Source: the human T2T-CHM13v2.0 reference genome, Homo sapiens. Taken from it: DNA of 64,000 nucleotides. A program made the position numbers and the translations under genes. The stretch is taken from assembly GCF_009914755.1 (NCBI RefSeq), contig NC_060937.1. The stretch is one strand, 5' to 3'. Each line of letters begins with the position of its first letter. Position 1 is the first letter of the stretch. The notes beneath the pieces were generated by a model, which saw only the letters and a list, made by a program, of their open reading frames with translations, had not been told where the DNA came from and did not search any database. Below are positions 1,880 to 61,591 of the stretch, piece by piece.

Positions 1880-2650
<771 letters not shown>

Positions 2651-3071
2651 TGACAGGCTTTTAACCTCTCAGATCTTATCACCTTACCTGTAACATTGGT
2701 ATAATTAGCTCAAAGGCTCCAACAATGAAATTATCAAATAAGCACAATTAGCTAATACTTAAAAGAACTATAGACTTAAAACTACCATTTTATGCTCACT
2801 AAATTATAAATTTTTTAAAGTTTCTAATACCCAAAGTTCCTGAAATTTCACTAAAGCTTATACATCTGTACACTGCCATGATAACATCTTTGTAAGGGAA
2901 AAAAACTGTAAAAAGTACATAACTAGAGATGTCTTTATCTTTTGATCCAGGAAATTACACTCAGGAATTTTTCTTAACAAAATAAAACAAAGCCATCTAC
3001 AGACATGAAGCCATCATCTACAGTATTACTTATTACTTACTAAATCAAATAACACTTTGAAATGCTTTCCT

Positions 3072-3400
<329 letters not shown>

Positions 3401-3679
3401 AATGCTGTCCTAACACATTTAATGATAAAATTACATGAAATTATATGCTATAATTTCAATGTATCATAAATACAGGTACAGAAAAAAGGAATATAAACAA
3501 ACTAAAATTTTGATTTGCTAGACTGTGAGACAGTGTTTTCTCAATTTAAAATTGCACAAGTCATGAAAACTGAATGTATAAGTTCTGATCTAACAATTCT
3601 ATTTTCTAAAAATACTAGTCTCTTTATTTTTCTTTCAGTTTTTATTTTACCTCTGATCTGTCTGGATTTATGACACTGA

Positions 3680-5945
<2,266 letters not shown>

Positions 5946-21796: not shown

Positions 21797-21901
21797 TTGT
21801 TTTGTTATCTTAACATCAATAAGGTAATCTAAAGTGTGTACTTGTAAATTATCATCTAGGCAATCCTTGGATTCCTGTCTTCTTTCGAGTTTTCTCTGTG
21901 A
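21797..21901 (-). other. Candidate orphan exon (105 bp, phase 0-0, open frame SQRKLERRQESKDCLDDNLQVHTLDYLIDVKITKQ)
   Basis: Branch point CTAAC + polypyrimidine tract + ttcag| acceptor; |gtatgt donor; parent gene not recognised. Confidence 0.4.
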
Positions 21902-24900
21902 CTGAAGAAAACAAGAGTTAGTTGTTTTAAATAAAGGTGGTAATTAACATAAATAATTAAGAATATAGTTGTATACTAATTACAAAACTTTAATATGTAA
22001 ACAGTCAAAGGTAATGGTAAAAGAAGATGGTTTACTAAAGGGAGTAATTTAAACATAACAATGTATTTTTATTTAAATTCAGGTAAGATGAATCATATCT
22101 TAAAATTAAAATCCAACTTTTAAATTCATTATCCACTTACGTTCTTATGAGTTTATACATGTCTGAACATATATAATTGTCTACTAAAATAAATTTTGTA
22201 ATTTCTGTGTAGATGAGTAAGAAATATGGAAAGCTCAATGTTAGTGATTTTATTCATTTCTAATAGTCTGATTTATAAAACCTTAACTAAAAATTATTAT
22301 ATGAAGTATATATAAAATGAGTAGATGTAGACTTGGGGTTTTCTTTTGTATTGTGACCAAACTATTATGTGCTCAGATAAAAGAGATCCCCATTTAACAA
22401 GAAAATAGTATGGCAACTCTGTTGACTTCTGATAAACTCTTAAATGGCTTTGAAAAATATGTTTTTTACTTTCTAAAATGAGTAAAGATCATTGCTACTG
22501 ATTATTTTGAAATATTACTCATAATAACTGCATTTTGTTTATGCAACTATGACTTATATCATGACTGCCCCACCTAACAATTATTCTTAACTTTGTGTTT
22601 CCTGTATTTGGCCCTAAATTTTCAAAAGTAAAATCACCCAAATGTCTTTTATGCTTATAATATCATTGGATTTGCTGAAATGACCACTGGGTGGCACAAA
22701 ATTTTGCTCTTTTGCCTTATAAATAGAATGAATAAGAAAATAATTAGATGTGTTTTGGCATTTTCCAAATTTAATAAGTTTAAAATTATCATAAACACTC
22801 TTCTTTTTACTTTTAAAAATTTAAGATGTATCCTAAAAAGGAACATCAAGCTTAATCCATTTTATTCCTGAGTTCTACCAGAGTTCAAGAAAGAAATCAT
22901 ATGTTACTTTAATTTTAAGAATACAGAAAAAGATGAAGCATTTTTAAACTCATGCGAAAAGACTAACATGACCATGACTGCAGATAAAGCAAGTATTCAA
23001 AATATCAATAGCTTTCCTTACTTTGCCATAACAAATCACAAAAGAAGATTACAATCACAATAGGAAAAAGTAGTTATTAAATTTATAGAAATGGACTAAA
23101 AATAAATAAGATGCACTCACTTAAGCAAACTGCAAATCTTTTATGAAAAATCTAAATCTAAATCCTGGGTGAGAAACATTTTTAAAAAATGGAGATAATC
23201 TTAGTCCCGAAATTTCTATCTAAAAAGATGGAAATTTCAGGGAGTCAGAGGAAAAGGGTGGATTGGAGACAGGACCAACCTGCAGGTCCCACTTGGATGG
23301 ACAGAATAGTGTGTAGAAAATCACACTGTGAACTTTTGCTCCAAGAACAACTTCAGAAAAGAATTCACAGACCCTTTGAAAGCAGCATCTTGCTGCTGCA
23401 AACTCCATGAGATGGCTGAAAACCTGTGAGCTCCCAAAGTGTGAGAAGGGGAAAAGTCAGCCTCTGAACACACATCCTCACTGGGGAACCTGAAAATGCA
23501 GGTCATGAAAGAAGGATCTGACCTTACCTATAGCTGAAATGGATTTAGGTAGCTAAGTGAAATATACAAGTAGAAGAAGCAGCAGGGAGAGCCCTGTAGG
23601 CACTCCCTGTCCCCAGCTTAAGACCAGGGAAGCCATTCCTGGCCATGTCTCACAGGGATCCTTGGGGAAGGCAGCCAGCAAAACTCGGGAGGGGCACAGA
23701 GTGAAGGACACTCCTAATTGAACTGACAATAATTTCCACTGAGCAAAACTTTTCTTGAGCAGAATTGGGGTGGGGGAGCAAACAGGAAGTGCAGATACCA
23801 GCATAGAAGTTGCAGCCAAAGGTGCAGGCAGGTGGGGAGAGGTGAGGCCTGGGAGCCATGCTTGCTTTCTCAGTGGGGAGGCTTGTAGCCTGGGGCAAGA
23901 TTTCAGCCCTGCTTGCGGCTGCCTGGATGTAAACTCAGTGCTGTGAGTGGGGCACAGCGAGAGTGAGATGGCCTTGCTGGCTGTGTGGGAGCTGGGTGAA
24001 GCCTGTCACTGCCAGCTTTCCTCCACTTCCAGGCAACCTTTATGATGTAGCAGAGGCAGCCATAATCCCCCTAAGAACATAACTCCACTGGCCTGGGAAC
24101 CACACCCCCATCTGCCACAGTGGCAGCAGCAAGCACCATCCAAGGAGAGTCTGAGCTCAGACCCACCTAACTGTGCCCTCACCTGATGGTTTTTCTCTAC
24201 CCACCCCGATAGCCAAAGACAAATGACATAAACTCTTGGGAGCTCTATGGCCCCACCCATCACCTAAGAAACCCGAGTACTTATCCTGGCCAATCTAGGG
24301 CAAGCTTATATCCCCTTTCTTCTACCACAGCTGGTGCTCTCTTCCAAGTGCCACCTGCCAGTTGAAGGCCAACCAACTCAAGCTATTACAGCAACTCATA
24401 CGAGAACAATCCTGCTCCAAAGAAGCTAACCAGAGCTGTGTCCCCAATCAGCTTCACTCCTAGCATAACCAGCATTCAATAAAGCCAGGGCACTAAACAA
24501 AACTACAACCAAGGACTCCCACAGAGTCTGCTTCACTCCCCTGCCACCTCCACTGAAGCAGGTGCTGTTATCCACGGGTGGGAGACTCGAAGACAAATCA
24601 CATCACAGGACTCTGCAGACATCCCCAGTACCACCATGGAGGCTGGTAGCACTGCTGGGTAGCTAGACCCAGAAGGACAATAACAATCACTGAAGTCTGG
24701 CTCTCAGGAAGCTCCATCCCTAGAAAAAGGAGGAGAATACCACATCAAAGGATCACCCTGTGGGGGAAAAAAATCTGAACAACCACCCTTGAGTTCCAGA
24801 TCTTTTCACTGAAACAGTCTACACAAATAAAAAAAAATCAGAAAAGTAATTCTGGTAATATGACAAATCAAGGTTCTATAACACCCCAAAAAGATCACAC

Positions 24901-27297
24901 TAGCTCTCCAGCAATGGATGCAAACCAAGAAGAAATCTCTGAATTGCCAAATAAAGAATTCAGAAAGTTAATTATTAAGCTACTCAAGGAAGCACCAGAG
25001 AAAGGTAAAAACCAACTTAAAGAAATTTAAAAAACAAGCTCTGAGGGAAAAATGGCAGATGGGAAGCAGGACTAGATTCCAGCTCCCACTCAGATAGAGA
25101 GCAGTGTGTGGAGACTTGCATCATGAATTTTTGCTCCAGAACTACTGCAGGAGTAATTCACGAAAGTCAAGAAAACCCACAGACCTTCTGAAAAAAGTGG
25201 ATTGCTCCTGCAGGACCAGGAAAACAACCCAAATACTGTAAGTGCCAAGCTTTGAAAGTGAGAAAGGGGGAGCATCTGCCCCTGAACACATACCCTCACT
25301 GGGAAACCTGAAGGTCTAGATCATAGGAGAAGGATCTGATCTTACCTGGGGCTGAGTCAATTTAGAGATCTGAGCAAAGCACAGAGGTAGATGAAGCAGC
25401 AGAAAAAGCCCTGTGGGCTCTCTGGGTCCCCCAGGAAGCTATTTCATACCTGTCTCACAGGGGTCCTTGGGGAGAGCTGCCAGAGTTGCGGAAAGACCAC
25501 AGTAAGAAGGAAACCTCCAGCTGAACGTTGTTAACAATTCCAACCGAAGGCGAAGTCTCCTGGCCAAAACTTGGGGGAGGGCATGAATCCTGTGTGCACA
25601 CTCAACAGTGGGGAAGCACGAAAACCCTGCTTGCTTTTGCACCTGGGATGCTGGTAGCCTGGGGCAAGTTCTCAGCCTTGCTCACCTACTGTCTGGAAAC
25701 AGACTCAGAGCTGTTGGTAGGGGTGCACAGTGGGAGTGAGACCAGTCTTTTGGGTTGTGTGGGAGCTGGATGAGGCCTGTGACTGACAGCTTTCCCCAAC
25801 TTCCCTGACAACCTGCATGACACAGCGGAGGCAACCATAATCCTCCTAGGAACACAACTCCATTGACCTGGGAACCACACCTTCATCTCCCAGAGCAGTT
25901 ACAGAAAGACCTGCCCAAGGAGAGTCTGAGCTCAGACATGCCTAGCCCTGCCCCAACCTGACGGTCCTTCCCTACCCACCCTGGTAGCTGAAGACAAAGG
26001 ACATGTACTCGGGAGTTCTAGGGCCCCACCCACTGTCTATTCTCCTTATACTACCACAGATGCTCTCTTGAAAGCATCACCTCCTGGCAAGAGGCCAACC
26101 AGCACAAAAATAGTGCATTAAACAACCAAAACTAAGGACCCTCACAGAGTCCATTTCACTCCCATGCCACCTTCACCAGAGCAGGTACTGGTATCCATGG
26201 CTGAGAGACCTGCAGACAGTCTACATCACAGGACTCTGTGCAGACACCTCCCAGTACCAGCCTGGAGCCTGGCAGCCCTGTTGGGTGGCTAGATCCAGAA
26301 GAGAGGTAACAATCGCTGCAGCTCAGCTCTCAGGAAGCCACATCCCTAGGAAAAAAGGGAGAGTACTACATCACAGGAATAGCCTGTGGGACAAAAGAAT
26401 CTGAACAGCAGCCTTGAGCCCTAGATCTTCCCTCTGACGTAGCCTACCCAAATGAGAAGGAAACAGATAAACAATTCTGGTAATATGACAAAACAAGGTT
26501 CTTTAACACCTCCAAAAAATCACATTAGCTCACCAGCAATGGATCCAAACCAAGAAGAAATCCCTGATTTACCTGAAAATGAATTCAGAAGTTCAGTTAT
26601 TAAGCTAATAAAGGAGGCACCAGAGAAACGTGAAGTCCAATTTAAGGATATCCAAAAAATGATACAAGAAATGAGGGGAGATATCTTCAGTGAAATACAT
26701 AGCATAAATAAAAAACAATCACAGCTTCAGGAAATAAAGGATGCACTTCGAGAAATGCAAAATGTTCTGGAAACTCTCAGCAATAGAATCAAACAAGCAG
26801 AAGAAAGAATTTCAGAGCTCGAAGACAAAGTTATTGAATTAACCCAATCCAACAAAGACCACGAAAAAAGAATAAGAAAAAATGAACAAAGCCTCCAAGA
26901 AGTTTGGGATTATGTTAAGTGACCAAACCTAAGAATGATTGGTGTTCCTGAGGAAGAAGAGAAATCTACAAGTTTGGAAAACATATTTTGGGAAATAATC
27001 AGGGAACACTTCCCCAGCCTTGCTAGAGACCTAGATATTCAAATAAAATAAGCTAAAAGGACATCTGGGAAATTCATCATAAAAAGATCATCACCTAGGC
27101 ACACTGTCATCAGGTTATCTAAAGTCAAGATGAAGGAAATAATCCTAAGAGCTGTGAGGCAAAAGCACCAGGTAACCTATAAAGAAAAATCTATCAGATT
27201 AACAGATTTCTCACCAGAAACTCTACAAGCTAGCAGTGATTGGGGCCCTATCTTCAGCTTCCTTAAACAAAACAATTATCAGCCAAGAATTTTGTAT

Positions 27298-27395
27298 AAG
27301 GTGGACCAGATGGCTCTCACCTTCCCATGTCTAAGGTGGACCAGATGGCTATTACCTTGCCGTGTCTAAGTTGGATCAGATGGCTCTCGCCTTGC
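27298..27395 (+). repeat. 35-bp satellite island 1 (~2.8 units)
   Basis: Unit ~AAGGTCGACCAGATGGCTCTCGCCTTGCCATGTCT. Confidence 0.93.
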
Positions 27396-27565
27396 AGCTT
27401 CATAAATGAAGGGAAGATGTAGTCTTTTTCAGACAAACAAATGCTGAGAAAATTCACCACTACCAACCCAGCACTACAAGAACTGTAAAAGGAGCTCTAA
27501 ATTTTGAAACAAATCCTGGAAACACATAAAAACAGAAACTCTTTAAAGCATAAATCTCCCAGAAC

Positions 27566-27880
27566 AAGGTCGACTAGATGGCTCTCACCTTGCCATGTCT
27601 AAGGTCGACCAGATGGCTCTCGCCTTGCCATGCCTAAGGTTGACCAGCTGGCTCTTGCCTTGTCATGGCTGAGGTTGACCAGATGGCTCTTGCCTTGCCA
27701 TGCCTAAAATTGACCAGATGGCTCTCACCTTGCTATGCCTAAGGTCGACCAGATGGCTCTCACCTTGCCATGTCTAAGGTTGACCAGATGGCTTTTGTGT
27801 GCCTATGTCTAAGGTCAACCAGATGGCTCTCACTTTGTTCTATGTAAGGTCAACTAGAGGGCTCTCACTTTTCCATGTCT
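27566..27880 (+). repeat. 35-bp satellite island 2 (9 units)
   Basis: Units start at 27566, 27601, 27636 ... 27846; 315 bp = 9 x 35. Confidence 0.95.
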
Positions 27881-30237
27881 CATAGGACCTATAAAACAAT
27901 AACACAATGAAAAAAAAACATAGTATACAGGCAACAAATAGCATGATGAATGGAATAGTACCTCACATCTCAATATTAACATTGAATGTTAATGGTCTAA
28001 ATGCTCTGCTTAAAAGATATAGAATTGTAGAATGGATAAGAATTCACCAACCAACTATTTGCTGCCTTCAAGAAACTCACCTAACACATAAGGACTCATG
28101 TAACTTAAGGTAAAGGGGTGAAAAAAAAAACATTCCATGCAAATGGACACCAAAAGTAACCAGGAGTAGCTATTCTTACATCAGACAGAAAAAACTTTAA
28201 AGAAACAGCAGTTAAAAAAGATGAAGAACATTATATAATGATAAAAAGCCTTGTGCAACAGAAAAATATCACAATCCTAAATATATATGCACCTAACACT
28301 GGAGCTCCCAAAGTTATAAAACAATTACTGCTAGACCTAAGAAATGAGATAGACAGCAACACAATAATATAAGGGACTCCAATACTCCACTGACAGCACT
28401 AGACAGGTCATCAAGACAGAAAGTTGATGAAGAAACAATGGATATAACCATACCCTGGAACAAATGCACTTAACAGATATTTACAGAACATTCTATCCAA
28501 CAAGTGCAGAATATACATTCTTTTCATCAGTGCATGGAACTTTCTCCAAGATAGACTATATGATAGGCCACAAAATAAGTCTCAATAAATTTAAGAAAAC
28601 TAAAACTATATCAAGTACTCTCTCAGACCACAGTGGAATACAATTGGAAATCAACTCCAAAAGGAACCTTCAAACCATGCAATTACAGGGAAATTAAATA
28701 ATCTGCTCCTGAATGATCACTGGGTCAACACTGAAATCAAGAAGGAAATTTAAAAATTCTTCAAACTAAAAGATAATAATGACACAACCTATCAATACCT
28801 CTGGGATATAGCAAAGGAGGTGCTAAGAGGAAAGTTTATAGCCTAAATGCCTACATCAGAAAGTCTGAAAAAGCACAAATATACCATCGAACATCACACC
28901 TCAAGGAACTAGAGAAATAAGAACAAATCGAAGTCAAACCCAGTAGAAGAAAGGAAATAACCAAGATCAGAGCAGAACTAAATGAAATTGAAACAAACAA
29001 ACAAACAAAAATCAGAAAGATAAATGAAACAGAAAGCTGATAGTTTGAAAAGATAAACAAAATTCATAGACCATTAGCAAGATTAATAAAGAAAAGAAGA
29101 GAGAAATTCCAAATAAGCTCAATTAGAAAAGAAATGAGAGATATTACAAACAACACCACAGAAATACAAAAGATCATTCAAGGCTACTATGAACACCTTT
29201 ATGCACATAAACCAGAAAGTAAAGAAGATGGATATATTCCTGGATAGACAAAACCCTCCTGGCTTAAATAAGAAAGAAATAGATAACCTGAACAGGCCAA
29301 TAACAAGCAGCAATATTAAAATAGTAATAAAAAAATTACCAACAAAAATGTCCAGGACCAGATAGATTTACAGTTGAATTCTACCAGACATTCAAAGAAT
29401 TGGTACCAATCCTATTGACACTATTCCACAAGACAGAGAAAGAGGGAATCCTCCCTAAATCATTCTATGAAGCCAGTATCACGCTAACACCCAAACCAAG
29501 AAAGAACATAACAAAAAAAGAAAACTACAGACCATTATCCCTGATGAACATAGATGTAAAAGTCCTTAACAAAATACTAGCTAACCATGTCCAACAATAT
29601 ATCAAAAAGATAATCTATCATGATCAAGTGGGTTTCATACCAGGGATGTAGGGATGGTTTAACATACACAAATCAATAAATGTGATACACCACATAAAGA
29701 TAATTAAAAACAAAAATCACACGATCATCTCAATAGATGCAGAAAAAGCATTGGACAAAATCCAGCATAACTTTATGATTTAAACCCTCAGCAAAATTGG
29801 CATCCAAGGGTCATACCTCAATGTAATAAAAGCGATCTATGACAAAGCCACATCCAAAATTATACTGAATAGGGAATAGCTGAAAGCATTCCCTCTGAGA
29901 ACTGGAACAAAACATGGGTGCCCACTCTTACCTCTTCTATTCAGCATAGTACTGGAAGTCCTATCCAGAACAATCAGATAAAAGAAAGAAACAAAGAGCA
30001 TCCATATCAGTAAAGAGGAAGTCAAAGTGTCATTGCTTGCCAAAGATATAATTGTATACCTAGAAAACCCTGAAGACTCCTCCAAAAAGCTCCTAGAACT
30101 GATAAATGAATTCAGCAAAGTTTCAGGATACAAAATCAATGTACACAAATCAGTACAAAGTTTGCTGAGTTCGTTTATCAGCTCTAGGCGATTTTTGGAG
30201 GAGTCTGAAGGGTTTTCTAGGTATACGATCATATCAT

Positions 30238-31012
30238 CATGACAAGGCAAGTGCCATCTGATCAACCCTAGACATGGGAAGACAAGAGCCATCTGGTTGA
30301 CCTTAGACATGGCAAGGTGAGAGCCTTCTGGTCGACCTTAGACATGGCAAAATGAGAGCTATCTTGTCGACCTTAGACATGGCAAGGTAAGAGCCATCTG
30401 GTTAACATTCAACATGGGAAGGTGAGAACCATCTGGTTGACCTTAGACATGGCAAGGCAAGAGCCATCTGGTCGACCTAGACATGGCACGGCAAGGATGA
30501 TCTGGTTGACCTTAGACATAGCAAGGCGAGAGTCATCTGGTCAACCTTAGACATAGGAAGATGAGAGCCATCTGGTCGACCTTAGACATGGGAATGTGAC
30601 AGCCATCTGGTTGACCTTAGACACAGCAAGGCAAGAGCCATCTGGTTGACCTTAGATATGGGAAGGTGACAGCCATCTGGTCCACCATAGACATGGGAAG
30701 GCGAGAGCCATCTCATCGATCTTAGACATGGGAATGCAACAGCCATCTTGTCAACCTTAGACATAGCAAGGTGAGAGCCATCTGGTCCACCTTAGACATG
30801 GCAAGGGGAGAGCCATCTGGTTAACCTTAGACTTAGAAAGGCGAGAGCCATCTGATCGACCTTACTCAGAATAAGGCAACGTCATCTGGTTGACCTTAGA
30901 CATAGGAAGGCAAGGGCCATCTGGTTGCCTTAGACATGGCAAGGCAATAGCCATCTGGTCAACCTCAGACATGTGAAGGCAAGATCCATATGGTAGACCT
31001 TAGACATGGCAA
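30238..31012 (-). repeat. 35-bp satellite island 3 (~22 units, reverse orientation)
   Basis: Plus strand reads AGACATGGCAAGGCGAGAGCCATCTGGTCGACCTT repeats, the reverse complement of the unit in islands 1 and 2. Confidence 0.95.
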
Positions 31013-34000
31013 ATTCAGCGAAGCTTCACAATATAAAATCAATGTACACAAACCAGTAGCTCTACTATACACCAACAGTGACCAAGCTCAGAATCAAATA
31101 AAGAACTTAACCCCTTTTACAATAGCTGCAAAAAGACCAATACTTACAAATATACCTAACCAAGGGATGAAAGACCTCTACAAGGAAAACTACAAAACAC
31201 TGCTGAAATAAATCATAGATGACACAAACAAATGGAAACACATCCCATGTGCATGGATGGGTAGAATCAATATTGTGAAAATGACCATACTGCCAAAAGC
31301 CATCTATAAATTCGATGTAATTCCCTTCAAAATACCACCATCATTTTTCAGAGAACTAGAAAAAACAATCTTAAAGTTTGTATAGGTAAAAAAAAAAAAA
31401 AAGCCTGCACAGTCAAAGCAAGACTAAGCAAAAAGAACAAATTGGGAGGCATCACATTACCTGATTTCAAACTATACTACAAGGCCATAGTCATCACCAA
31501 AACAGCATGGTATTCGTATAAAAACAGGCACATAGAACAATTGAACAAATAGAGAACCCAGAAATAAAGCAAAATACTTACCACCAACTGATCTTTGACA
31601 AAGCAAACAAAAACATAAAGTGGGGAAAGGATACCGTATTCAACAAATGGTGCTGGGATAATTGGCAAGTCACATGTAGGATAGTGAACCTGGATCCCCA
31701 TCTCTCACCTTATACAAAAATCAACTCAAGATGGATCAAGAACTTAACTCTAAGACCTGAAACTGTAAAAATTCTAGAAGATAACATCAGAAAACCCTTT
31801 GTAGACATTGGTTTAGGCAAGGATTTTGTGACCAAGAACCCAAAATCAAATGCAATAAAAACAAAGATAAATAGCTAGGACTTAAATAAACTAAAGAGTA
31901 TTTGCCCAGCAAAAGGAACAGTCAACAGAGTAAAGAGACAACCCACAGAGTGGGAGAAAATCTTCACAATCTACCCATCTGACACAGGACTAATATCCAG
32001 AAATTAACTCAAAGAAATTAGCAAGATAAAACCAAACAATCCCATCAAATAGTGAGCTAAGGACATGAACAGACAATTCTCAAAAGAAGATATACAAATG
32101 GCAACAAACATATGAAAAAATGCTCAACATCACTAATGATCAGGGAAATGCAAATCAAAACCACAATGTGATACCACCTTACTCCTGCAAGAATGGCCAT
32201 AATAGAAAAATTAATAATAATAGATGTTGGCATGGATGCAGTGAATAGGGAACACTTCTGCCCTACTGGTGGGAATCTAAACTAGTACAATCACTATGGA
32301 AAACAGTGTGGAGATTTCTCAAAGAACTAAAAGTAGAACTAACATTTGATCCAGCAATCCCACTACTGGATATCTACCTAGAGGAAAAGAAGCCCTTTAT
32401 GAAAAAGATTTTGCACATACATGTTTATAGCAGCACAATTCGCAATTGCAAAAATATAGAACCAACCGAAATGACTATCAATCAATGAATGGATAAAGAA
32501 ACTGTGGTATACATATATGAAGGAATACTACTTAGCCACAATAAGGAATGAAGTAATGGCATTTGCAGCAACCTGGATGGGATTGGAGACTATTATTCTA
32601 AGTGAAGTAATTCAGAAATGGAAAACCAAACATCTATGCCCTCACTCATAAGTGGGAACTAAGCTATGAGGATGCAAAGGCATAAGAATGGCACAATGAA
32701 CTTTGGGGACTCAGGGGAAAGGGTAAGAAGGTGAGGGATAAAAGACTACAAATTGGGTTCAGTTTACTGCTCAGGTGATGGGTGCAATCACCACTAAAGA
32801 ATTTATGTAACTGAATACCACCTGTTCCCCAAAAACCTATGGCAATAAAAAAATTAAAAAATAAAGAAACTAAAAACAGTACAGCATGTGGTTGAAAGAG
32901 TCTCCAGAGAAATAGATATCACATAGAAAAGACAATCACAACTTTTGGAAATGAAAGACACACTTAGAGAAAAGCAAAATACAGTGGAAAGTTTCAAGAA
33001 CAGATTTCAAACAAATAGAAGAAAGAAATTCAGAGTTTGAAGACAAGGTTTTCAAATTAGCCTAATCTGACAAAGACAAAGAAAAAAGAATTAAAATAAA
33101 TAAGCAAACCTCCAAGAAATGTGAAATTATGTTAAACAACCAAACATAAGAATACTTGCTGTTCCTGAGGAAGGAGAGAAATTTAAAAGTTTGGAAAATG
33201 TATTTGAGAAAATAATAGAGGAAAACTTCCCTGGTCTTGCTAGAGATCTAGACATCCAAATACCAGAAGTTCCAAGAACACCCTGGAAATTCATCACAGA
33301 AATTATCACCACCTAGGCACATAGTCATCAGGTTATCTAAAGTCAAGATGAAGGAAAACAATTTTAAGAGCTGTGAAGCAAAAGCATCAGGTAACCTATA
33401 AAGGAAAATCAACCAGATTAACAGCAGATTTCTCAGCAGAAACCCTACAAGCCAGAATAATTGGCATTCTATCTTTAGCCTCCTTAAACAAAAAAATTAT
33501 CAGCTAAAAATTTTGTATCTAGTGAAACTAAGCTTCCTAAATGAAGAGTGGTAAAGTCCTTTTCCAACAAAAAATGCTGAGAGAATTCACCACTACCAAG
33601 CCAGCACAAAAAATGCTAAAAGGAGCTCTAAACCTTGAAACAAAACCTCCACAGACACCAAAATAGAACCTCCTTAAAGGATAAATCTCATAGGGCCTAT
33701 AAAACAATAACACAATGAAAAAAACCCAAGGTATTCAGGCAACAACTGGCATGATAAACAGAAGTCCCTCACATGTCAAAACTAACATTTAATGTAAATG
33801 GCCAAATGTTCCACTTATAAGACACGGAATGGCAGAATGGATAAAAATCCACCAACCGTTTCCTGTCTTCCAGAGACTCACCTAACACATAAGGACTCAC
33901 ATAAACTTAAGGCAAAGGAGTAGAAAAAGACACTCCATCTAAATAAAAATGAAAAGTAAGCAGGAGTAGCTGTTTTTATATCAGACAAAACAGACTTTAA

Positions 34001-36021
34001 AGCAACAACAGTAAAAAAAGATAAAGAGAGACATTATATAATGATAAAAGGATTAGTTCAACTGGAAAAAGATCACATTCCTAAATGTATATGCACCTAA
34101 CACTGGAGCTCCCAAATTTATAAAACAACTACTACTAGACCTAAGAAATAAAACAGATGCCAACACAATAATAGTGGGAGACTTCACTCCTCCACTGATA
34201 GTACTAGACAGGTGATCACGACAGAAAGTTGACAAAGGAGCAATGAACTTAAACTATACCCTGGAACAAATGGACTTAACAGATATTTACAGAACACTAT
34301 ACCCAATAACTGCAGAATATACATTCTTTTCATCAGCACATGGAGCATTCTTCAAGATAAAACATATGATAGGCCACAAAACAAGTCTCAATAAATTTAA
34401 AAAAACTGAAATTATATCAAGTACTGTCAGACCACAGTGGAATAAAACTGGAAATTAATTCCAAAAAGAACCCTCAAAACTAAACAAATACATGAAAACT
34501 AAATAATGTGCTCCTGAATGGTCTTTAAACAATGAAATCAAGAGGGAAATTTAAAAATTGTTTGAACTGAATGATAATAGTGACGTAACCTATCAAAACC
34601 TCTGGGATACAGCAAAGGCGGTGCTAAGAGGAAAGTTCATGGTGTTAAATGTCTACATCAAAATGTCCGAAAGTGCACAAATAGACAATCGAAGCTCACA
34701 CCTCAAGGAACTAGAGAAACAGAACAAACAAAAGGCAAACCCAACAGAAGAAAAGAAATAACCAAAATCAGAGCAAAACTCAATGAAATTGAAACAAAAC
34801 AGAACAAAACAACACAAAAGATAAATGAAACAAAAAGCTGGTTCTTTGAAAAAATAAACAAACTCCATAGACCATTAGTGAGAGTAACAAAGAAAAGAAG
34901 GAAGAAGATCCAAATAAGCTCAATTAGAAATGAAATGGAAGATTTACGACCAATACCAGAGAAATCATTCAAAGCTACTATGAACACCTTTATGCACATA
35001 AACTAGAGAACCTAGAGGAGATGGATAGATTCCTGGAAATATACAACACGCCTAGATTAAACCAGGAGGAAATAAAAACTCTGAACAGACCAATAACAAG
35101 TAGCAAGATTGAAACAGAAATTTAAAAATTGCCAATAAAAAAAGCTCAGGACCAGATGGATTCACAGCTGAATTTTATCAGACATTCAAAGAAGAACAGA
35201 TACCAATCCTACTGAAAGTATTCCAAAAGAGAGAGAAAGAGGGAATCCTCCCTAAATCATTCTATGAGGTTAGTATCACCCTAATACCAAAAACAGGAAA
35301 GGACATAACAAAAAAAGGAAACTACAGACTGGAATACCTGATGAACATAGATGCAAAAATCCTTAACAAAATACTAGCTAACTGAATCCATTAGCATATC
35401 AAAGAGATAATACACCACGATCAAGTGGGTTTCATATCAGGGATGCAGAGTTGGTTTACCTTATGCAAGTCAAAAACTGTGGTACACCACATAAAGAGAA
35501 TTTTTTTAAAAATCACATGATCACCTCAATAGAGGCAGAAAAATCATTTGACAAAATCCAGCATACCTTTATGATTAAAACCCTTAGCAAAATCAGCATA
35601 GAAGAGACATACCTTGAGGTAATAAATGCCATCTATGACAAACCCATAGCGAACATCATACTGAGTAGGGAAATGTTGAAATCATTCCCCCTGAGAATTG
35701 GAACAAGATAACAATGCCAATTTTCACCACTTCTATTCAACATAGTACTGGAAGTCCTAGCCAGAGCAATCGGACGTGAGAAAGAAACAAAGGGCATCCA
35801 TATCAGTAAAGAGGAAGTCAAACTGTTGCTGTTCACCAGTGATATGATCATATACCTAGAAAACCCTAAAGACTCATCCAAAAATCTCCTAGAACTGATA
35901 AATGAATACAGTAAAGTTTCAAGATACAAAACCATGTACACAAATCAGTAGCATTGCTATACACCAAAAGTGACCAAGTTGAGAATAAAATAAAGAACTC
36001 AACCCCTTTTAAAACAGCAGC

Positions 36022-36024
36022 AAA

Positions 36025-36067
<43 letters not shown>

Positions 36068-36072
36068 AATAA
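36022..36072 (+). repeat. (TAAA)n microsatellite in L1 ORF2
   Basis: Direct reading. Confidence 0.9.
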
Positions 36073-37821
36073 AATACTTGGGACTATACCTAACCAAGAT
36101 GAAAGACCTCTACAAGGAAAACTACAAAACACTGCCAAAAGAAATTATAGGTGACATCAAAAAATGGAAACACATCCCATGTCCATGGATGGATATAATC
36201 AATATTGAAAAAATAACCATACTGCCAAAAACCATCAATAAATTCAATGAAATTTCCATCAAAATACCATCATCATTCTTCACAGAACTAAAAAAAAAAA
36301 ATCTTAAAAATCATACAGAACCAAAAAAGAGCCCACATAGCTAAAGCTAGACTAAGCAAAAACAACAAATCTGAAGGCATCACATTACCCAACTTCAAAC
36401 TATGCTACAAGGTTATAGTTACAAAAACAGCATGGTACTGGTATAAAAACAGGTATGTAGACCAAAGGAATAGAATAGAGAACCCAGAAATAAAGCCAAT
36501 TACTTACAGCCAACTGATCTTCTACAAGGCAAACAAAAATATAAAATGGGGAAGTGACACCCTATTCAACAAATGGTGCTGGGATAATTGGCAAGCCACA
36601 TGTAGAAGAATGAAACTAGATGATCATCTCTCACCTTATACAAAAATCAACTCAGGGTGCATCAAATACTTAAAACTAAGACCTGAAACCATAAAAATTC
36701 TAGAAGATGACACTGGAAAAATTCTTCTAGACATTGGCTTAGGCAGAGTTCATGACCAAGCATCTGAAAGCAAATGCAACAAAAACAGAGGTAAATAGAA
36801 GGGACTTAATTAAACTAAAAAGGTTCTGCACAGCAAAATAAATATTCAGTACAGTGAGCAGACAACCCACAGAGTGGGGAAAAATATTCACAAACTATGC
36901 ATTCAACAAAGGACCTAATATCCAGAATCTACAAGGAACTCAAACACATCAGCAAGAAAAAACAAATAATCCCATCAAAATGTGGGCTGAGGACATGAAT
37001 AGAAAATGCTCAAGATATATAAATGGCCAACAAACATGAAAAAATGCTCAACATCATTAAACATCAAGGAAATGCAAATCAAAACCACATTGAGATACCA
37101 CCTTACTCCTGCAAGAATGGCCATAATTAAAAAATAAAAAAACAATAGATGTTGGTGTGGATGTGGTGAAAAGGGAACACGTTTCCACTGCTGGTGGGAA
37201 TGTAAACTAGGACAACCACCATAGAAAACACTATAGCGATTCCTTAAATAACTAAAAGTAGAACTACCATTTGATCCAGCAATCCCACTACTGAGTATCT
37301 AACCAGAGGAAAAGAATTTAAAAAGACACTTGCACGCACATGTTTATAGAAGCACAATTCCCAATTGCAGAAATATAGAACCAGCCTAAATGCCTATCAG
37401 TTATCGAGTGGATAAAGAAAATGTGGTATATAGGTGTGCCATGGAATAGTACTTAGTCATAAAAAGATATGAAATAATGGCATTCATAGTAACCTGAATG
37501 AGATTGGAGACTATCATTGTAAGTGAAGTAGCTGAAGTCTGGAAACCAAATATCGTATGTTCTCATTCATAAGTGGGAGATAAGCCGTGAGGATGCAATG
37601 GCATAAGATTGACACAATGGACTTTTGGGACTCTAGGGGAAAGGGTGGAGGGGTGATAGATTAAAGACTAAACATTGGGTGCAGTGTACACTGCTTGGGT
37701 GATGGGTACACCAAAATCTCAGACATCAACACTAAAGAATTTATCCATTAACCAGACCCCACCCATTCCTCCAAAACTATTGAAATAATAATAAAAAATT
37801 TTTAAAAGATGGAAATTTCAG

Positions 37822-54014: not shown

Positions 54015-55139
54015 TCAACCCATACTTTCATATCCAGCCAAACTAAGCTTCATAAGCGATGGAGAAATAAAATTATTTACAGGCAAGCAAATGCTGAGAG
54101 ATTTTGTCACCACCAGGCCTGCCTTACAAGAGCTCCTAAAGTAAGCACTCAACATGGAAAGGAAAAACTGGTACCAGCCACTGCAAAAACATACCAAATT
54201 GTAAAGGCCATCGACACTATGAAGAAACTGCATCAACTAGCAGGCAAAATAACCTGCTAACATCATGATGACAGGACCAAATTCACACATAACAATATTA
54301 ACCTTAAGTGTAAGTGCGCTAAATGCCACAATTAAAAGATACAGATTGGCAAATCGGATAGAGTCAAGACCCATAGGTGTGCTGTATTCAGGAGACCCAT
54401 CTCATGTGCAAAGACACACATAGGCTCAAAAGTAAATGGATGGAAGAATATGTACCAAGCAAATGGAAAGCAAACAAAGCAGGGGTTGCAATACTAGTCT
54501 CTGATAAAACAGACTTTAAACCTACAAAGATCAAAAAGGACAAAGAAAGGCATTAAATAATGGTAAAGGGACCAATGCAACAAGAAGAGCTAACTATCCT
54601 AAATATATATGCACCCAATACAGGAGCACCCAGATTCATAAAGCAAGTTCTTAGAGACCTACAAAGAGACTTAGACTCCCACACCATAATGGTGGGAGAC
54701 TTTAACACCCCACTGTCAATATTAGACAAATCAATGAGACAGAAACTTAACAAGGATATTCAGGACTTGAATTCAGCTCTGGACCAAGCAGACCTAATAC
54801 ACATCTACAGAACTCTACACCCCAAATCAACAGAATATACATTCTTCTCAGTGTCACATAGCACATATTCTAAAATCGACCACATAATTGGAAGTAGAAC
54901 ATTCCTCAGCAAATTCAAAAGAACTGAAATCATAACAAACAGTCTCTCGGACCATGGTGCAATCAAATTAGAACTCAGGATTAAGAAACTCACTCAAAGG
55001 GAGGACCCAAGATGGCCGAATAGGAACAGCTCCGGTCTACAGCTCCCAGCGTGAGCAACGCAGAAGACGGGTGATTTCTGCATTTCCATCTGAGGTACCA
55101 GGTTCATCTCACTAGGGAGTGCCAGACAGTGGGCGCAGG

Positions 55140-55448
55140 TCAGTGGGTGCACGCACCATGCACGAGCCAAAGCAGGGCGAGGCATTGCCTCACTTGGGAA
55201 GTGCAAGGGGTCAGGGAGTTCCCTATCCTAGTCAAAGAAAGGGGTGACAGACCGCACCTGGAAAATCGGGTCACTCCCACCCGAATACTGCGCTTTTCCG
55301 ACGGGCTTAAAAAACGGCGCACCAAGAGATTATATCCCACACCTGGCTCAGAGGGTCCTACGCCCACGGAGTCTCCCTGATTGCTAGCACAGCAGTCTGA
55401 GATCAAACTGCAAGGCGGCAGCGAGGCTGGGGGAGGGGCGCCCGCCAT
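55140..55448 (-). CDS. L1 antisense ORF0-like ORF, 102 aa
   Basis: gcaATGG start; MAGAPPPASLPPCSLISDCCASNQGDSVGVGPSEPGVGYNLLVRRFL... matches primate L1 ORF0. Expression unknown. Confidence 0.6.
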   Translation of the reverse strand: MAGAPPPASLPPCSLISDCCASNQGDSVGVGPSEPGVGYNLLVRRFLSPSEKRSIRVGVTRFSRCGLSPLSLTRIGNSLTPCTSQVRQCLALLWLVHGACTH

Positions 55449-55896
55449 TGCCCAGGCTTGATTAGGTAAACAAAGCAGCTGGGAAGCTCGAACTGGGCGG
55501 AGCCCACCACAGCTCAAGGAGGCCTGCCTGCCTCTGTAGGCTCCACCTCTGGGGGCAGGGCACAGACAAACAAAAAGATAGCAGTAACCTCTGCAGACTT
55601 AAATGTCCCTGTCTGACAGCTTTGAAGAGAGCAGTGGTTCTCCCAGCACGCAGCTGGAGATCTGAGAACGGGCAGACTGCCTCCTCAAGTGGGTCCCTGA
55701 CCCCTGAGCAGCCTAACTGGGAGGCACCCCCCAGCAGGGGCACACTGACACCTCACATGGCAGGGTATTCCAACAGACCTGCAGCTGAGGGTCCTGTCTG
55801 TTAGAAGGAAAACTAACAAACAGAAAGGACATCCACACCAAAAACCCATCTGTACATCACCATCATCAAAGACCAAAAGTAGATAAAACCACAAAG

Positions 55897-56911
55897 ATGA
55901 GGAAAAAACAGAACAGAAAACTGGAAACTCTAAAAAGCAGAGCGCCTCTCCTCCTCCAAAGGAACGCAGTTCCTCACCAGCAACGGAACAAAGCTGGATG
56001 GAGAATGACTTTGACAAGCTGAGAGAAGAAGGCTTCAGACGATCAAATTACACTGAGCTATGGGAGGACATTCAAACCAAAGGCAAAGAAGTTGAAAACT
56101 TTGAAAAAAATTTAGAAGAAGGTATAACTAGAATAACCAATACAGAGAAGTGCTTAAAGGAGCTGATGGAGCTGAAAACCAAGGCTCGAGAACTACGTGA
56201 AGAATGCAGAAGCCTCAGGAGCCGATGCGATCAACTGGAAGAAAGGGTATCAGCAATGGGAGATGAAATGAATGAAATGAAGCGAGAAGGGAAGTTTAGA
56301 GAAAAAAGAAAAAAAGAAATGAGCAAAGCCTCCCGGAAATATGGGACTATGTGAAAACACCAAATCTACGTCTCATTGGTGTGCCTGAAAGTGATGGGGA
56401 GAATGGAACCAAGTTGGAAAACACTCTTCAGGATATTATCCAGGAGAACTTCCCCAATCTAGCAAGGCAGGCCAACGTTCAGATTCAGGAAATACAGAGA
56501 ACGCCACAAAGATATTCCTCGAGAAGAGCAACTCCAAGACACATAATTGTCGGATTCACCAAAGTTGAAATGAAGGAAAAAATGTTAAGGGCAGCCAGAG
56601 AGAAAGGTCGGGTTACCCTCAAAGGGAAGCCCATCAGACTAACAGCGGATCTCTCGGCAGAAACCCTACAAGCCAGAAGAGAGTGGGGGCCAATATTCAA
56701 CATTCTTAAAGAAAAGAATTTTCAACCCAGAATTTCATATCCAGCCAAACTAAGCTTCATAAGCGAAGGAGAAATAAAATACTTTACAGACAAGCAAATG
56801 CTGAGAGATTTTGTCACCACCAGGCCTGCCCTAAAAGAGCTCCTGAAGGAAGCGCTAAACATGGAAAGGAACAACCGGTACCAGCGACTGCAAAATCATG
56901 GCAAAATGTAA
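55897..56911 (+). pseudogene. L1 ORF1p, frameshifted
   Basis: ATG at 55897; split into ORFs 55998-56354 and 56351-56911 by single-base losses. Confidence 0.9.
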
Positions 56912-56959
56912 AGACCATCGAGACTAGGAAGAAACTGCATCAACTAACGAGCAAAATAA

Positions 56960-60801
<3,842 letters not shown>

Positions 60802-61014
60802 ACAATGAGATCACATGGACACAGGAAGGGGAATATCACACTCTGGGGACTGTCGTGGGGTGGGGGGAGGGGGGAGGGATAGCATTGGGAGATATACCTA
60901 ATGCTAGATGACGAGTTAGTGGGTGCAGCGCACCAGCATGGCACATGTATACATATGTAACTAACCTGCACAATGTGCACAGGTACCCTAAAACTTAAAG
61001 TATAATAAAAAAAA

Positions 61015-61591
61015 TTAAATACTAAACAAATTAATATCAAAATAAAATAACCGAGCTCAAAAAGATATCCCATAATGCAAAGAAGAAGAGATTGAAATGA
61101 GGAAATTGATGATATTCAATGTGAAAAGCAAGAATTTTAAGAAATATATAATATGAACTCGAGATGGAGAGAGTAGAGCACAAAGGAAGAAAAGCAATAA
61201 TTAAAGTTTTACAGGAAAGCTATATAAATTTAAAGTCCATATTTTATATAATACATTTTTTCAGTTATTTTCCTTAATTCTGAGGATTTGGCAAACCTAA
61301 GGAGGTCTGTAGCCTCTGTTATATATTCATAAGGTAGAAAGAAGTTAGAGGAAAGGGAGAGAAGCAAGGGAAAAATAAAAGAGCTAAAGGCAAGGAGAAA
61401 ACAAAGATAAAAATTTATCAGGAGTAACTGCTTTTTTTTAGAGAAACAAAAAATGATCTAAAATGCTTACCATTAAGTTTTGTGATAAATGCAATAAAAC
61501 ATGTTCTTTTATATTCCAGAGAATGTTCAGTAAAGTTCAGTAAAGATTTGCATCACTGGTTCATGTAAAAAAAAAAAAAAAAAAAAAAAAA
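61015..61591 (+). other. L1 3' transduction (~550 bp non-L1 sequence plus a second poly-A)
   Basis: Lies between the L1 end and the poly-A (61567-61591)/TSD; AATAAA at 61493 and AGTAAA at 61539. Confidence 0.9.

What the first reader, a model, noticed from the sequence alone, without database searches (positions are those of the whole stretch)
27298..31012. The same 35-bp satellite inserted three separate times, in both orientations, inside one L1PB
Seen: unit AAGGTCGACCAGATGGCTCTCGCCTTGCCATGTCT occurs as 2.8 units (27298-27395, replacing ~12 bp of ORF1 relative to the outer L1PB copy), 9 units (27566-27880, inter-ORF region, flanked by TCTCCCAGAAC/TCTCATAGGAC-like duplication) and ~22 reversed units (30238-31012). 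L1 sequence resumes colinearly after each island, and the outer L1PB lacks all three. Islands 1 and 2 start at the same register (AAGGT). The unit has no evident L1 origin; its period and core (GGTCG.CCAG.TG.CTCT) recall HSAT4, from memory. Inference: repeated template switching between L1 and a satellite RNA/DNA during retrotransposition, or repeated patching of breaks from one donor. Either would be a route for seeding satellites at new loci.
Basis: partly seen in the sequence, partly recalled or inferred. Interest (0 to 1): 0.75.

Follow-up and report, generated by a model that had tools for sequence, protein, structure and literature searches.

The report
Satellite patches inside one old L1
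One ancient L1 retrotransposon near the chromosome 13 centromere carries three patches of a rare 35-bp satellite otherwise found mainly beside the chromosome 19 centromere, and the joints look like scars of a copying process that kept switching templates: a fossil of how satellites get seeded at new places.

Summary
Three 35-bp arrays (2.9, 9.0 and 22.2 units, the last reversed) interrupt one full-length L1 with target-site duplications. That L1 is nested in an older L1. No other L1 copy in this genome carries the arrays.

The unit is unrelated to L1. It is a diverged relative of HSAT4 (23 of 35 bases). It also forms the variable tandem part of a ~550-590-bp repeat beside the chr19 centromere. 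The family is tiny, found only on chr19, chrX, chr10, chr12 and here.

Each joint differs:
- Island 1 replaces 12 bp of L1.
- Island 2 is flanked by an 8-11-bp duplication.

Unit divergence and a shared-mutation test place the event(s) early in the L1's residence.

Best reading (about 0.5): synthesis-dependent repair or replication with repeated template switching onto a double-stranded satellite donor, MMBIR/FoSTeS-like. Rivals are switching by L1 reverse transcriptase during insertion, and separate end-joining captures.

Dispersed satellite patches with short duplications are already described for alpha satellite and for Drosophila Rsp-like. This is a new member of a known kind, of moderate interest.

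The parts
23436..25036 (+). 5' part of the outer (older) L1, cut by the insertion of the inner L1
   Evidence: 23436-24259 and 24487-25034 match inner 25255-26032 and 26112-26659; outer branch about 11-12%.
25019..25036 (+). Left target-site-duplication-like copy of the inner L1 (AAAGAAATTTAAAAAACA)
   Evidence: It pairs with 32863-32878.
25037..32862 (+). Inner L1: full length with an A-rich tail. Colinear with other L1 copies except at the three islands.
   Evidence: Branch length about 7% against 10-11 siblings.
27298..27395 (+). Island 1: 2.8 units, register 1 to 28. It replaces 12 bp of ORF1.
   Evidence: sibling copies match query 1-58 and 157-210, with about 12 bp where the island lies.
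27555..27565 (+). Left copy of the 8-11-bp L1 duplication flanking island 2 (TCTCCCAGAAC)
27566..27880 (+). Island 2: 9.0 units, register 1 to 35, in the inter-ORF spacer
27878..27888 (+). Right copy of the duplication (TCTCATAGGAC). Its first 3 bases could equally be the last 3 bases of the satellite unit.
30041..30123 (+). L1 ORF2 segment that served as the source of the inverted copy. The motif CTTGCCA, shared with the satellite unit, lies just upstream at about 30034-30040.
30109..30155 (+). First copy of the 47-bp direct duplication of L1 that brackets the island-3 block
   Evidence: in sibling copies the two flanks overlap by 47 bp.
30157..30237 (-). Inverted copy of L1 30041-30123, separated from its source by a spacer of about 32 bp
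   Evidence: Sibling copies match query 138-220 on the opposite strand at 82-89%.
30238..31011 (-). Island 3: about 22 units in reverse orientation. Read forward, register 25 to 32.
31012..31058 (+). Second copy of the 47-bp duplication. L1 continues colinearly from here.
32863..32878 (+). Right target-site-duplication-like copy (AAAGAAACTAAAAACA)
32879..37799 (+). 3' part of the outer L1, with no islands

Best explanation
After this L1 had inserted, and early in its residence, a break or stalled fork inside it was repaired by DNA synthesis. That synthesis repeatedly left the L1 template, copied stretches of a double-stranded array of the 35-bp satellite (once also the opposite strand of the L1 itself), and returned close to where it had left. 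At least seven switches are needed.

The returns fell 12 bp ahead at island 1 (a deletion), 8-11 bp behind at island 2 (a duplication) and 47 bp behind at island 3 (a duplication). This is the pattern of microhomology-mediated break-induced replication or fork stalling and template switching.

Shown:
- the anatomy of the joints
- the foreign origin of the unit
- that the islands are private to this copy
- the approximate age

Inferred:
- that one event or a tight series made all three islands
- that the donor was DNA
- that a repair or replication polymerase, not L1 reverse transcriptase, did the copying

The islands have no evident function. They are a fossil of satellite seeding.
For: 1. Private, post-source origin.
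- The pattern search of the whole assembly finds 98 good units; the reversed-pattern control finds 0.
- By my count from that listing, 24 are here, 57 on chr19, 14 on chrX, 2 on chr12 and 1 on chr10.
- Junction-spanning searches (40 of 1810 candidates scored, 40 of 4157 scored) find only the window itself spanning an L1/satellite joint.
- 0 of 11 siblings and the outer L1 carry islands 1 or 2.

2. Linked events.
- Three of the family's few sites lie within 3.7 kb, so independent random hits are not credible (inference).

3. Joint anatomy typical of template switching.
- There is a deletion at one joint, flank duplications of 8-11 and 47 bp at the others, insertions in both orientations, and an inverted 83-bp copy of adjacent L1 about 32 bp from its source.
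- The 7-nt block CTTGCCA is shared by L1 and the satellite unit within 2-4 nt of the inverted-L1/satellite joint.

4. Both strands used.
- Islands 1-2 are sense and island 3 is antisense. Both strands of the donor and of the L1 were therefore copied, which a duplex DNA donor supplies directly (inference).

5. Timing.
- The duplicated L1 pieces share 0 of 84, and at most 1 of 49, derived substitutions with their sources. The single shared one is also in the outer L1 and in 3 siblings.
- This gives an upper 95% bound of 0.45 on the fraction of the L1's residence that preceded the event.
- Unit divergence at 24 conserved non-CpG sites is 6.1 +/- 1.7% pooled, against an L1 branch of about 7%.

6. 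Excess change in the copies.
- The copied L1 pieces carry 16 private substitutions in 129 bp, against 5 in the same source positions (Fisher p = 0.02). That fits low-fidelity synthesis.

7. Precedent.
- Rsp-like satellite inserted into 1.688 arrays in Drosophila shows 7-bp microhomology and 32-bp flank duplications. The authors name FoSTeS/MMBIR as candidates (10.1101/846238, passages read).
Against: - No donor array lies on chr13 in this assembly. The donor would have been in trans, or has since been lost.
- Most joints show only 0-3 nt of microhomology (read). The 7-nt block lies beside one joint rather than exactly at it.
- The excess of substitutions in the copied pieces (about 8%) is far above any polymerase error rate I know of, so that signal may be chance or something else.
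- The islands differ in variant make-up: C27 in 0 of 9 versus 9 of 22 units, p = 0.03; C33 in 3 of 8 versus 0 of 22, p = 0.014; G6 in 3 of 3 versus 2 of 31, p = 0.002. They are therefore not simple samples of one short donor stretch.
- Islands 1 and 2, and the chr10 patch, begin at the same register. This model does not predict that.
- The early date is what a retrotransposition-stage event would give without any coincidence.
Confidence: 0.5

Rival explanations
1. The patches arose while this L1 was being inserted. L1 reverse transcriptase, or the polymerase making the second strand, jumped between the L1 template and satellite transcripts and back.
For: - The event dates to the start of the L1's residence within error.
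- Experimental L1 insertions containing sequence from two RNAs, template-switching reverse transcription, twin priming and fold-backs are reported (PMC11702581, passages read).
- Islands 1, 2 and the chr10 patch start at register 1, as run-off at a fixed RNA 5' end would give. P(3 or more of 5 random starts identical) = 0.008.
Against: - A single pass needs both sense and antisense satellite RNA.
- The inverted L1 piece cannot be copied from the nascent first strand, which had not yet reached that region (inference from the order of synthesis).
- By recall, known L1 chimeras such as U6-L1 join at the 5' end of a truncated L1. They are not internal patches in a full-length, colinear copy.
- The register coincidence is post hoc. 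Of the three further patches only 1 starts at register 1 (P = 0.08), and 2-3 nt of that start are ambiguous.
- The chr10 and chr12 patches lie outside any L1 and have no A-tail.
Confidence: 0.2
2. Separate double-strand breaks in this L1 were each patched by end joining. The filler was free satellite DNA, such as extrachromosomal circles or cDNA. The breaks happened either together or in sequence, possibly with the first island later serving as a local donor.
For: - Class 2 templated sequence insertions show microdeletion, little microhomology and no A-tail (PMC5110952, abstract and sections 5 and 9 read). Island 1 fits this.
- Dispersed human alpha-satellite repeats show 2-10-bp duplications at most insertion sites, and circles are proposed as the vehicle (PMC7719264, passages read). 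Island 2 fits this.
- The chr10 patch replaces the centre of an 80-bp palindromic element, a classic break site. The chr12 patch sits between an Alu A-tail and a (TA)n run.
- The islands differ in variant make-up.
Against: - End joining does not readily give a 47-bp flank duplication plus an inverted copy of neighbouring sequence (inference).
- Three independent breaks in one 7.8-kb element, all filled from a family with very few genomic sites, needs a special reason.
- Island 2 is not a random sample of island 3, which weakens island-to-island copying. Founder effects could still explain the difference.
Confidence: 0.2
3. The islands belong to an L1 subfamily or source element and were inherited by retrotransposition.
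For: None was found. The L1 is full length with a target-site duplication, so inheritance is formally possible.
Against: - 0 of 11 aligned siblings and 0 of 20 siblings at island 3 have the islands.
- All 98 good units in the assembly lie at listed sites, and none lies at the same L1 coordinates.
- Junction-spanning searches return only the window itself.
Confidence: 0.02
4. The 35-mer arose from local L1 sequence by slippage.
For: None.
Against: - The unit scores no better against L1 than shuffled units: best local score 13, against a shuffle mean of 12.5, with 43 of 100 shuffles at least as high.
- The same unit exists in a non-L1 context on chr19, where its flanks show how the repeat arose inside a longer unit.
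- Family-wide polymorphisms at positions 27 and 33 are present in the islands.
Confidence: 0.01

Closest known systems
HSAT4, a 35-bp human satellite at 1q42.13, 16p11.1, 19q12 and Xp11.1 (PMC2588610, passages read)
   Same: - The period is the same, 35 bp.
- 23 of 35 positions are identical in one register, and 0 of 2000 shuffles reach this.
- BLAST links island 2 to the 1q42 array at 65-67% identity.
- The two arrays are neighbours at chr19q12 (L031 143-1815 versus 2487-4260).
   Different: - About one third of positions differ.
- Our unit is also the variable tandem part of a ~550-590-bp repeat on chr19p12/q12.
- Its RepeatMasker or Dfam name could not be looked up here. SATR1 is only my unverified guess from memory.
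Rsp-like satellite spreading into 1.688 arrays in Drosophila simulans and D. mauritiana (10.1101/846238 = PMC7403614, passages read)
   Same: - A rare satellite is inserted into an abundant repeat.
- There is microhomology of up to 7 bp at the joints.
- There are duplications of flanking host repeat (32 bp there, 47 bp here).
- The second joints are variable.
- Candidate mechanisms are MMEJ/FoSTeS/MMBIR and circular DNA.
   Different: - The host there is another satellite and the insertions recur at many loci with shared joints.
- Here there is one L1 with three unshared joints in both orientations, plus an inverted host piece.
Dispersed alpha-satellite repeats in human euchromatin (PMC7719264, passages read)
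   Same: - Short satellite arrays are embedded in or next to L1, Alu and ERV copies.
- 2-10-bp duplications occur at most insertion sites.
- The hybrid elements are not spread further.
- Many are clustered within 1 kb.
- The insertions date back to early simians.
   Different: - The satellite is different and the family is far smaller.
- The 47-bp duplication, the inverted flank copy and the 12-bp replacement are not features described in the passages I read.
Templated sequence insertions at double-strand breaks, classes 1 and 2 (PMC5110952, abstract and sections 5 and 9 read)
   Same: - Patches are copied from a distant template.
- Class 2 shows microdeletion, microhomology and no A-tail, as island 1 and the chr10 and chr12 patches do.
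   Different: - Class 2 has no target duplications, whereas islands 2 and 3 do.
- Class 1 needs an A-tail and a TTTT/A site, which are absent here.
- Three patches in one element are not described there.
Non-canonical L1 insertions with template switching and fold-backs (PMC11702581, passages read)
   Same: - Sequence from a second template lies inside an L1-mediated insertion.
- There are inverted pieces.
- There are duplications or deletions at the joints.
   Different: - The reported cases join whole cDNA segments at insertion or rearrangement junctions.
- In the passages I read, none is a full-length colinear L1 with three internal patches of one satellite.

Membership tests
HSAT4 | 35-bp tandem period | tested here: met
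   period 35 in all three islands.
HSAT4 | Unit sequence matches that of the HSAT4 arrays (1q42 array used as the standard) | tested here: inconclusive
   23 of 35 identical in one register, with 0 of 2000 shuffles reaching this. BLAST identity is 65-67%. The two are related but clearly distinct. Whether RepeatMasker would label our unit HSAT4 cannot be tested here.
L1 subfamily-intrinsic tandem repeat | Present at the same L1 coordinates in other copies | tested here: not met
   0 of 11; 0 of 20 at island 3.
L1 subfamily-intrinsic tandem repeat | Unit derivable from L1 sequence | tested here: not met
   43 of 100 shuffles score at least as high.
MMBIR/FoSTeS-type complex rearrangement | Several template switches clustered at one locus, with templated insertions in direct and inverted orientation | tested here: met
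   Seven joints lie within 3.8 kb. Islands 1-2 are direct. Island 3 and an L1 piece are inverted.
MMBIR/FoSTeS-type complex rearrangement | Small deletions or duplications of the original template where synthesis returns | tested here: met
   -12 bp, +8-11 bp and +47 bp.
MMBIR/FoSTeS-type complex rearrangement | Microhomology at the joints | tested here: inconclusive
   Most joints show 0-3 nt. A 7-nt shared block lies within 2-4 nt of one joint. No formal test against chance was run.
MMBIR/FoSTeS-type complex rearrangement | All joints made in a single event | not testable with these tools
   This needs orthologous loci in other primates. The ages of the islands overlap, but their variant make-up differs.
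L1-endonuclease-mediated insertion in trans (class 1 templated insertion) | Target-site duplication of at least 5 bp | tested here: met
   Island 2 has 8-11 bp and island 3 has 47 bp. Island 1 has a deletion instead.
L1-endonuclease-mediated insertion in trans (class 1 templated insertion) | A-tail at the 3' joint, and a TTTT/A target site | tested here: not met
   No A-run is present at any island joint on either strand.
Class 2 templated insertion (end-joining patch) | No target duplication; microdeletion or microhomology at the joints | tested here: inconclusive
   Met at island 1. Not met at islands 2 and 3.

The most novel reading that the evidence does not exclude
The donor was not a chromosomal array. 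It was a satellite transcript, or its cDNA or a small circle, with a fixed end at register 1 of the unit. In a burst roughly as old as this L1, it was used again and again as filler by reverse transcription at breaks and at a retrotransposition intermediate. This seeded the satellite on chr13 (three times), chr10 and chr12. That would be an RNA-templated route of satellite dispersal caught in the act inside an L1.
Probability: 0.15. Interest if true: 0.75.

Novelty: new member of a known kind. Interest (0 to 1): 0.42.

Why it matters
How satellites reach new loci is usually inferred from many scattered, eroded insertions. Here the host is an L1 with thousands of siblings, so the empty-site sequence is known to the base. 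Every joint can therefore be read: a deletion, two duplications and an inverted flank copy.

The duplicated host pieces also give an internal clock for the event relative to the L1's insertion.

The family is small enough that all its sites in a complete genome can be listed. Three to five of those sites are seeded patches at break-prone places.

With primate telomere-to-telomere assemblies, this locus could show whether one catastrophic synthesis event or a series of events seeds a satellite, and whether such seeds later grow.

Tried and rejected
- **Borders inherited from the chr19 repeat.** I asked whether island borders coincide with the borders of the 35-mer block in the chr19 ~550-bp repeat. 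They do not. The block there runs from about register 24 to register 23. The islands run 1-28, 1-35 and 25-32.
- **An L1/satellite joint inside the chr19 repeat.** A BLAST match of L031 5249-5328 (later 5219-5328) to window 27279/27250-27357 reaches into the L1 flank. By eye the flank part is weak, so I treat it as chance.
- **Single-unit rolling circle as donor.** Rejected. Island 3 carries the family-wide G/C polymorphism at position 27 (9 of 22 units C), and island 2 carries C33 (3 of 8).
- **One original array later split by inversion.** Rejected by logic. The L1 is continuous across 30040/30041, where that model needs the array to sit.
- **chrX array flanks related to the chr19 repeat.** Only a CA microsatellite matches.
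- **Alu-like stretch in the chr19 repeat.** An impression by eye. It is not supported by BLAST against the window at E < 1e-3 among the first 60 of 99 hits that I inspected, so it is dropped.
- **More full-length sibling L1 copies.** One was fetched instead. It proved rearranged at its own 5' end, so it served only as a check of colinearity.
- **Literature.** Five full-text searches were run in all. The three aimed at satellite patches or template switching in L1 listed no paper describing a satellite inserted several times into one L1. This was judged from the listings and from the passages read. Supplements were not opened.
Full report
**What is there**

Tandem Repeats Finder reports three period-35 arrays at 27293-27395 (2.9 copies), 27566-27880 (9.0 copies) and 30238-31012 (22.2 copies, reverse-complement unit). 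They lie in one L1.

Self-comparison of the window shows two L1 copies.
- The inner copy runs from about 25037 to 32862.
- The outer copy is split into 23436-25036 and 32879-37799.

The inner copy has an A-rich tail. It is bracketed by a 16-18-bp direct repeat at 25019-25036 and 32863-32878. It is therefore an ordinary full-length insertion into the ORF1 region of the older copy.

Outside the islands the inner copy is colinear with the outer one.

**The joints**

I fetched 11 sibling L1 copies, 90-93% identical over 27396-27565 (40 of 2192 candidates scored), and aligned them. None of the 11 has island 1 or island 2.

- Island 1: 12 bp of L1 (CCAGTGAAACTA or a close variant) are replaced by 98 bp of satellite.
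- Island 2: the satellite is flanked by two diverged copies of an L1 11-mer that is single in the siblings. The first 3 bases of the right copy could equally be the end of the satellite unit, so the true duplication is 8-11 bp.
- Island 3: a genome search with 30020-31120 (40 of 4157 candidates scored) and a local alignment show three things.
  - L1 runs to 30155.
  - It is followed by an inverted copy (30157 to about 30239) of L1 30041-30123.
  - The reversed array then follows, and L1 resumes at 31012 with a repeat of 30109-30155 (47 bp).

In sibling copies the two flanks overlap by those 47 bp, and the inverted piece matches the opposite strand at 82-89%.

Beside the joint between the inverted L1 piece and the array, L1 and the satellite unit share the 7-nt block CTTGCCA. 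At the other joints I read only 0-3 nt of possible microhomology.

**What the unit is**

It has no detectable similarity to L1. Its best local score against the inner L1 without islands, plus the L1 at 55005-61053, is 13. Shuffled units average 12.5, and 43 of 100 shuffles score at least as high.

The assembly that holds the window was searched with island 2 (29 of 29 candidates scored) and with a 24-nt degenerate pattern allowing up to 2 mismatches. The pattern gives 98 matches, and the reversed control gives 0. By my count of that listing:
- 24 matches are in this locus
- 57 are on chr19 (about 23.42, 23.57, 24.14 and 30.30 Mb)
- 14 are on chrX (140.37 Mb)
- 2 are on chr12 (46.91 Mb)
- 1 is on chr10 (32.99 Mb)

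On chr19 the unit occurs in two forms. One is pure arrays of 34-51 units. The other is a block of 1-5 units inside a tandem repeat of about 550-590 bp. In that repeat, the sequence to the left of the block already resembles the 3' part of the unit. This shows how the 35-mer arose there by internal duplication.

The satellite named HSAT4 in the literature is also 35 bp and lies at 1q42.13, 16p11.1, 19q12 and Xp11.1 (PMC2588610, passages read). The 1q42 array (L038) has a different unit. That unit matches ours at 23 of 35 positions in one register, and 0 of 2000 shuffles reach this. At chr19q12 the two kinds lie next to each other.

So the unit is a diverged relative of HSAT4. I could not look up its curated name.

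**Private to this copy**

No match outside the window exceeds 81% identity to island 2, so there is no recent duplicate of the locus.

Junction-spanning queries return only the window itself across a joint. Only 40 candidates were scored in each, but the satellite-based searches are the stronger test. They list no other L1 with the unit at these coordinates.

The chrX array does lie between two pieces of an L1, but at a different L1 position and with unrelated flanking DNA.

**Age**

Branch lengths were estimated from pairwise distances as d(inner, sibling) minus half d(sibling, sibling).
- The inner L1 branch is about 7% (0.071 and 0.069 in two regions). It is 0.050 in the region used to pick the siblings, which is biased low.
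- The outer copy's branch is about 11-12%.

Units of the islands differ from the majority unit of the chr19 and chrX arrays at 24 conserved, non-CpG, non-polymorphic sites as follows:
- island 1: 4.5% (3 of 67)
- island 2: 3.7% (8 of 214)
- island 3: 7.3% (38 of 524)
- pooled: 6.1 +/- 1.7%
- chr19 and chrX arrays themselves: 10-12.5%

The duplicated L1 pieces give an internal test. If the L1 had sat there long before the event, the copy and its source should share substitutions that siblings lack.
- Against 20 siblings, the inverted copy shares 0 of 84 compared sites with its source.
- The 47-bp repeat shares 1 of 49, and that variant is also in the outer L1 and in 3 siblings.
- With 5 private substitutions on the source side, the part of the L1's residence that preceded the event is below 0.45 at 95%.

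The event(s) were therefore early. By a recalled neutral rate of about 0.2% per million years, they happened some 30-40 million years ago.

An oddity remains. The copied pieces carry 16 private substitutions in 129 bp, against 5 in the source positions (p = 0.02). Six of the 10 in the inverted copy are transversions (P = 0.08).

**Mechanism**

Three sites of so small a family within 3.7 kb cannot be independent random hits. They are linked by one event, by a tight series, or by a local donor.

These features are what synthesis that leaves and rejoins its template produces:
- a return 12 bp ahead, one 8-11 bp behind and one 47 bp behind
- insertions in both orientations
- a nearby inverted copy of the host separated by about 32 bp from its source
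- a 7-nt shared block next to one switch

The authors of the Drosophila Rsp-like study name FoSTeS and MMBIR for comparable joints.

The satellite appears in both orientations, and the L1 itself was copied from both strands. A double-stranded DNA donor is therefore the simplest source. I put about 0.5 on this reading.

The main rival is switching during the L1's own insertion (0.2).
- For it: the early date, and experimental reports of template-switched and two-RNA insertions (PMC11702581).
- Also for it: islands 1 and 2 and the chr10 patch all begin at register 1, as run-off at a fixed RNA end would give.
- Against it: both satellite strands would be needed, and the inverted L1 piece lies in a part the first strand had not yet reached.
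- Against it: the register coincidence is weak when tested fairly. One of three further patches matches (P = 0.08).

Separate end-joining captures of free satellite DNA (0.2) fit island 1 and the chr10 and chr12 patches. They do not easily give the 47-bp duplication with an inverted flank.

The islands differ in variant make-up. The donor stretch was therefore heterogeneous, or there were several donors, or founder effects and later local expansion acted. This is unresolved.

**Comparison with what is known**

Short satellite arrays embedded in transposons, with 2-10-bp duplications, are described for human alpha satellite (PMC7719264). Microhomology-mediated insertion of a rare satellite into an abundant repeat is described in Drosophila. 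Templated patches at breaks are described in human cells and populations (PMC5110952).

This locus adds another satellite family and an unusually readable, multi-joint example. It does not add a new kind of process.

The three literature searches aimed at such events listed no report of one satellite inserted several times into one L1. That rests on listings and on the passages read. Supplements were not opened.

**Limits**
- No repeat library and no other primate genome were available.
- The L1PB label, the curated name of the satellite and the single-event question are therefore open.
- Microhomology was read by eye and not tested against chance.
- Several statistics rest on small counts.

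Noticed in passing
L034 2459-2610 (G000 chr10:32988958-32989109): A 3.5-unit patch of the same 35-mer sits in the centre of a short palindromic element whose 12-bp ends are kept on both sides, next to TA. The same pair of ends spaced 50-62 bp apart occurs 262 times in the assembly, against 0 for the control. By recall this is the mariner-derived MADE1. The interior of the palindrome has been replaced by satellite, as expected of a centre break that was patched.
   Followed up: partly
L035 2567-2642 (G000 chr12:46905066-46905141): A 2.2-unit patch of the same 35-mer lies between the A-rich tail of an Alu-like element and a (TA)n run. It has no A-tail of its own and no evident duplication.
   Followed up: partly
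L033 2086-6036 (G000 chrX:140365085-140369035): A 66-unit array of the same family, with 1.3 kb and 0.36 kb of unrelated flanking DNA, lies between two pieces of one minus-strand L1. About 250 bp of L1 are missing at the site. This is a second L1-embedded site of the family, at a different L1 position.
   Followed up: partly
L031, L032, L036, L037 (G000 chr19 about 23.42, 23.57, 24.14 and 30.30 Mb): A tandem repeat of about 550-590 bp contains 1-5 copies of the 35-mer as an internal variable block with conserved flanks. At chr19q12 it lies beside a true HSAT4 array and a pure 51-unit array of our unit. This is the likely birthplace of the 35-mer.
   Followed up: partly
window 25037-25419: The hub's table puts the upstream end of the minus-strand lncRNA LOC124900335 (last listed exon 21797-25419) inside the first about 380 bp of the inner L1. 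That is where L1 antisense promoters lie (recalled). The transcript may start from this L1.
   Followed up: no
window 30157-30237 and 31012-31058: The copied L1 pieces are about three times more diverged from sibling copies than the pieces they were copied from (16 versus 5 private substitutions in 129 bp). Many of the changes in the inverted piece are transversions. No explanation is secure.
   Followed up: partly
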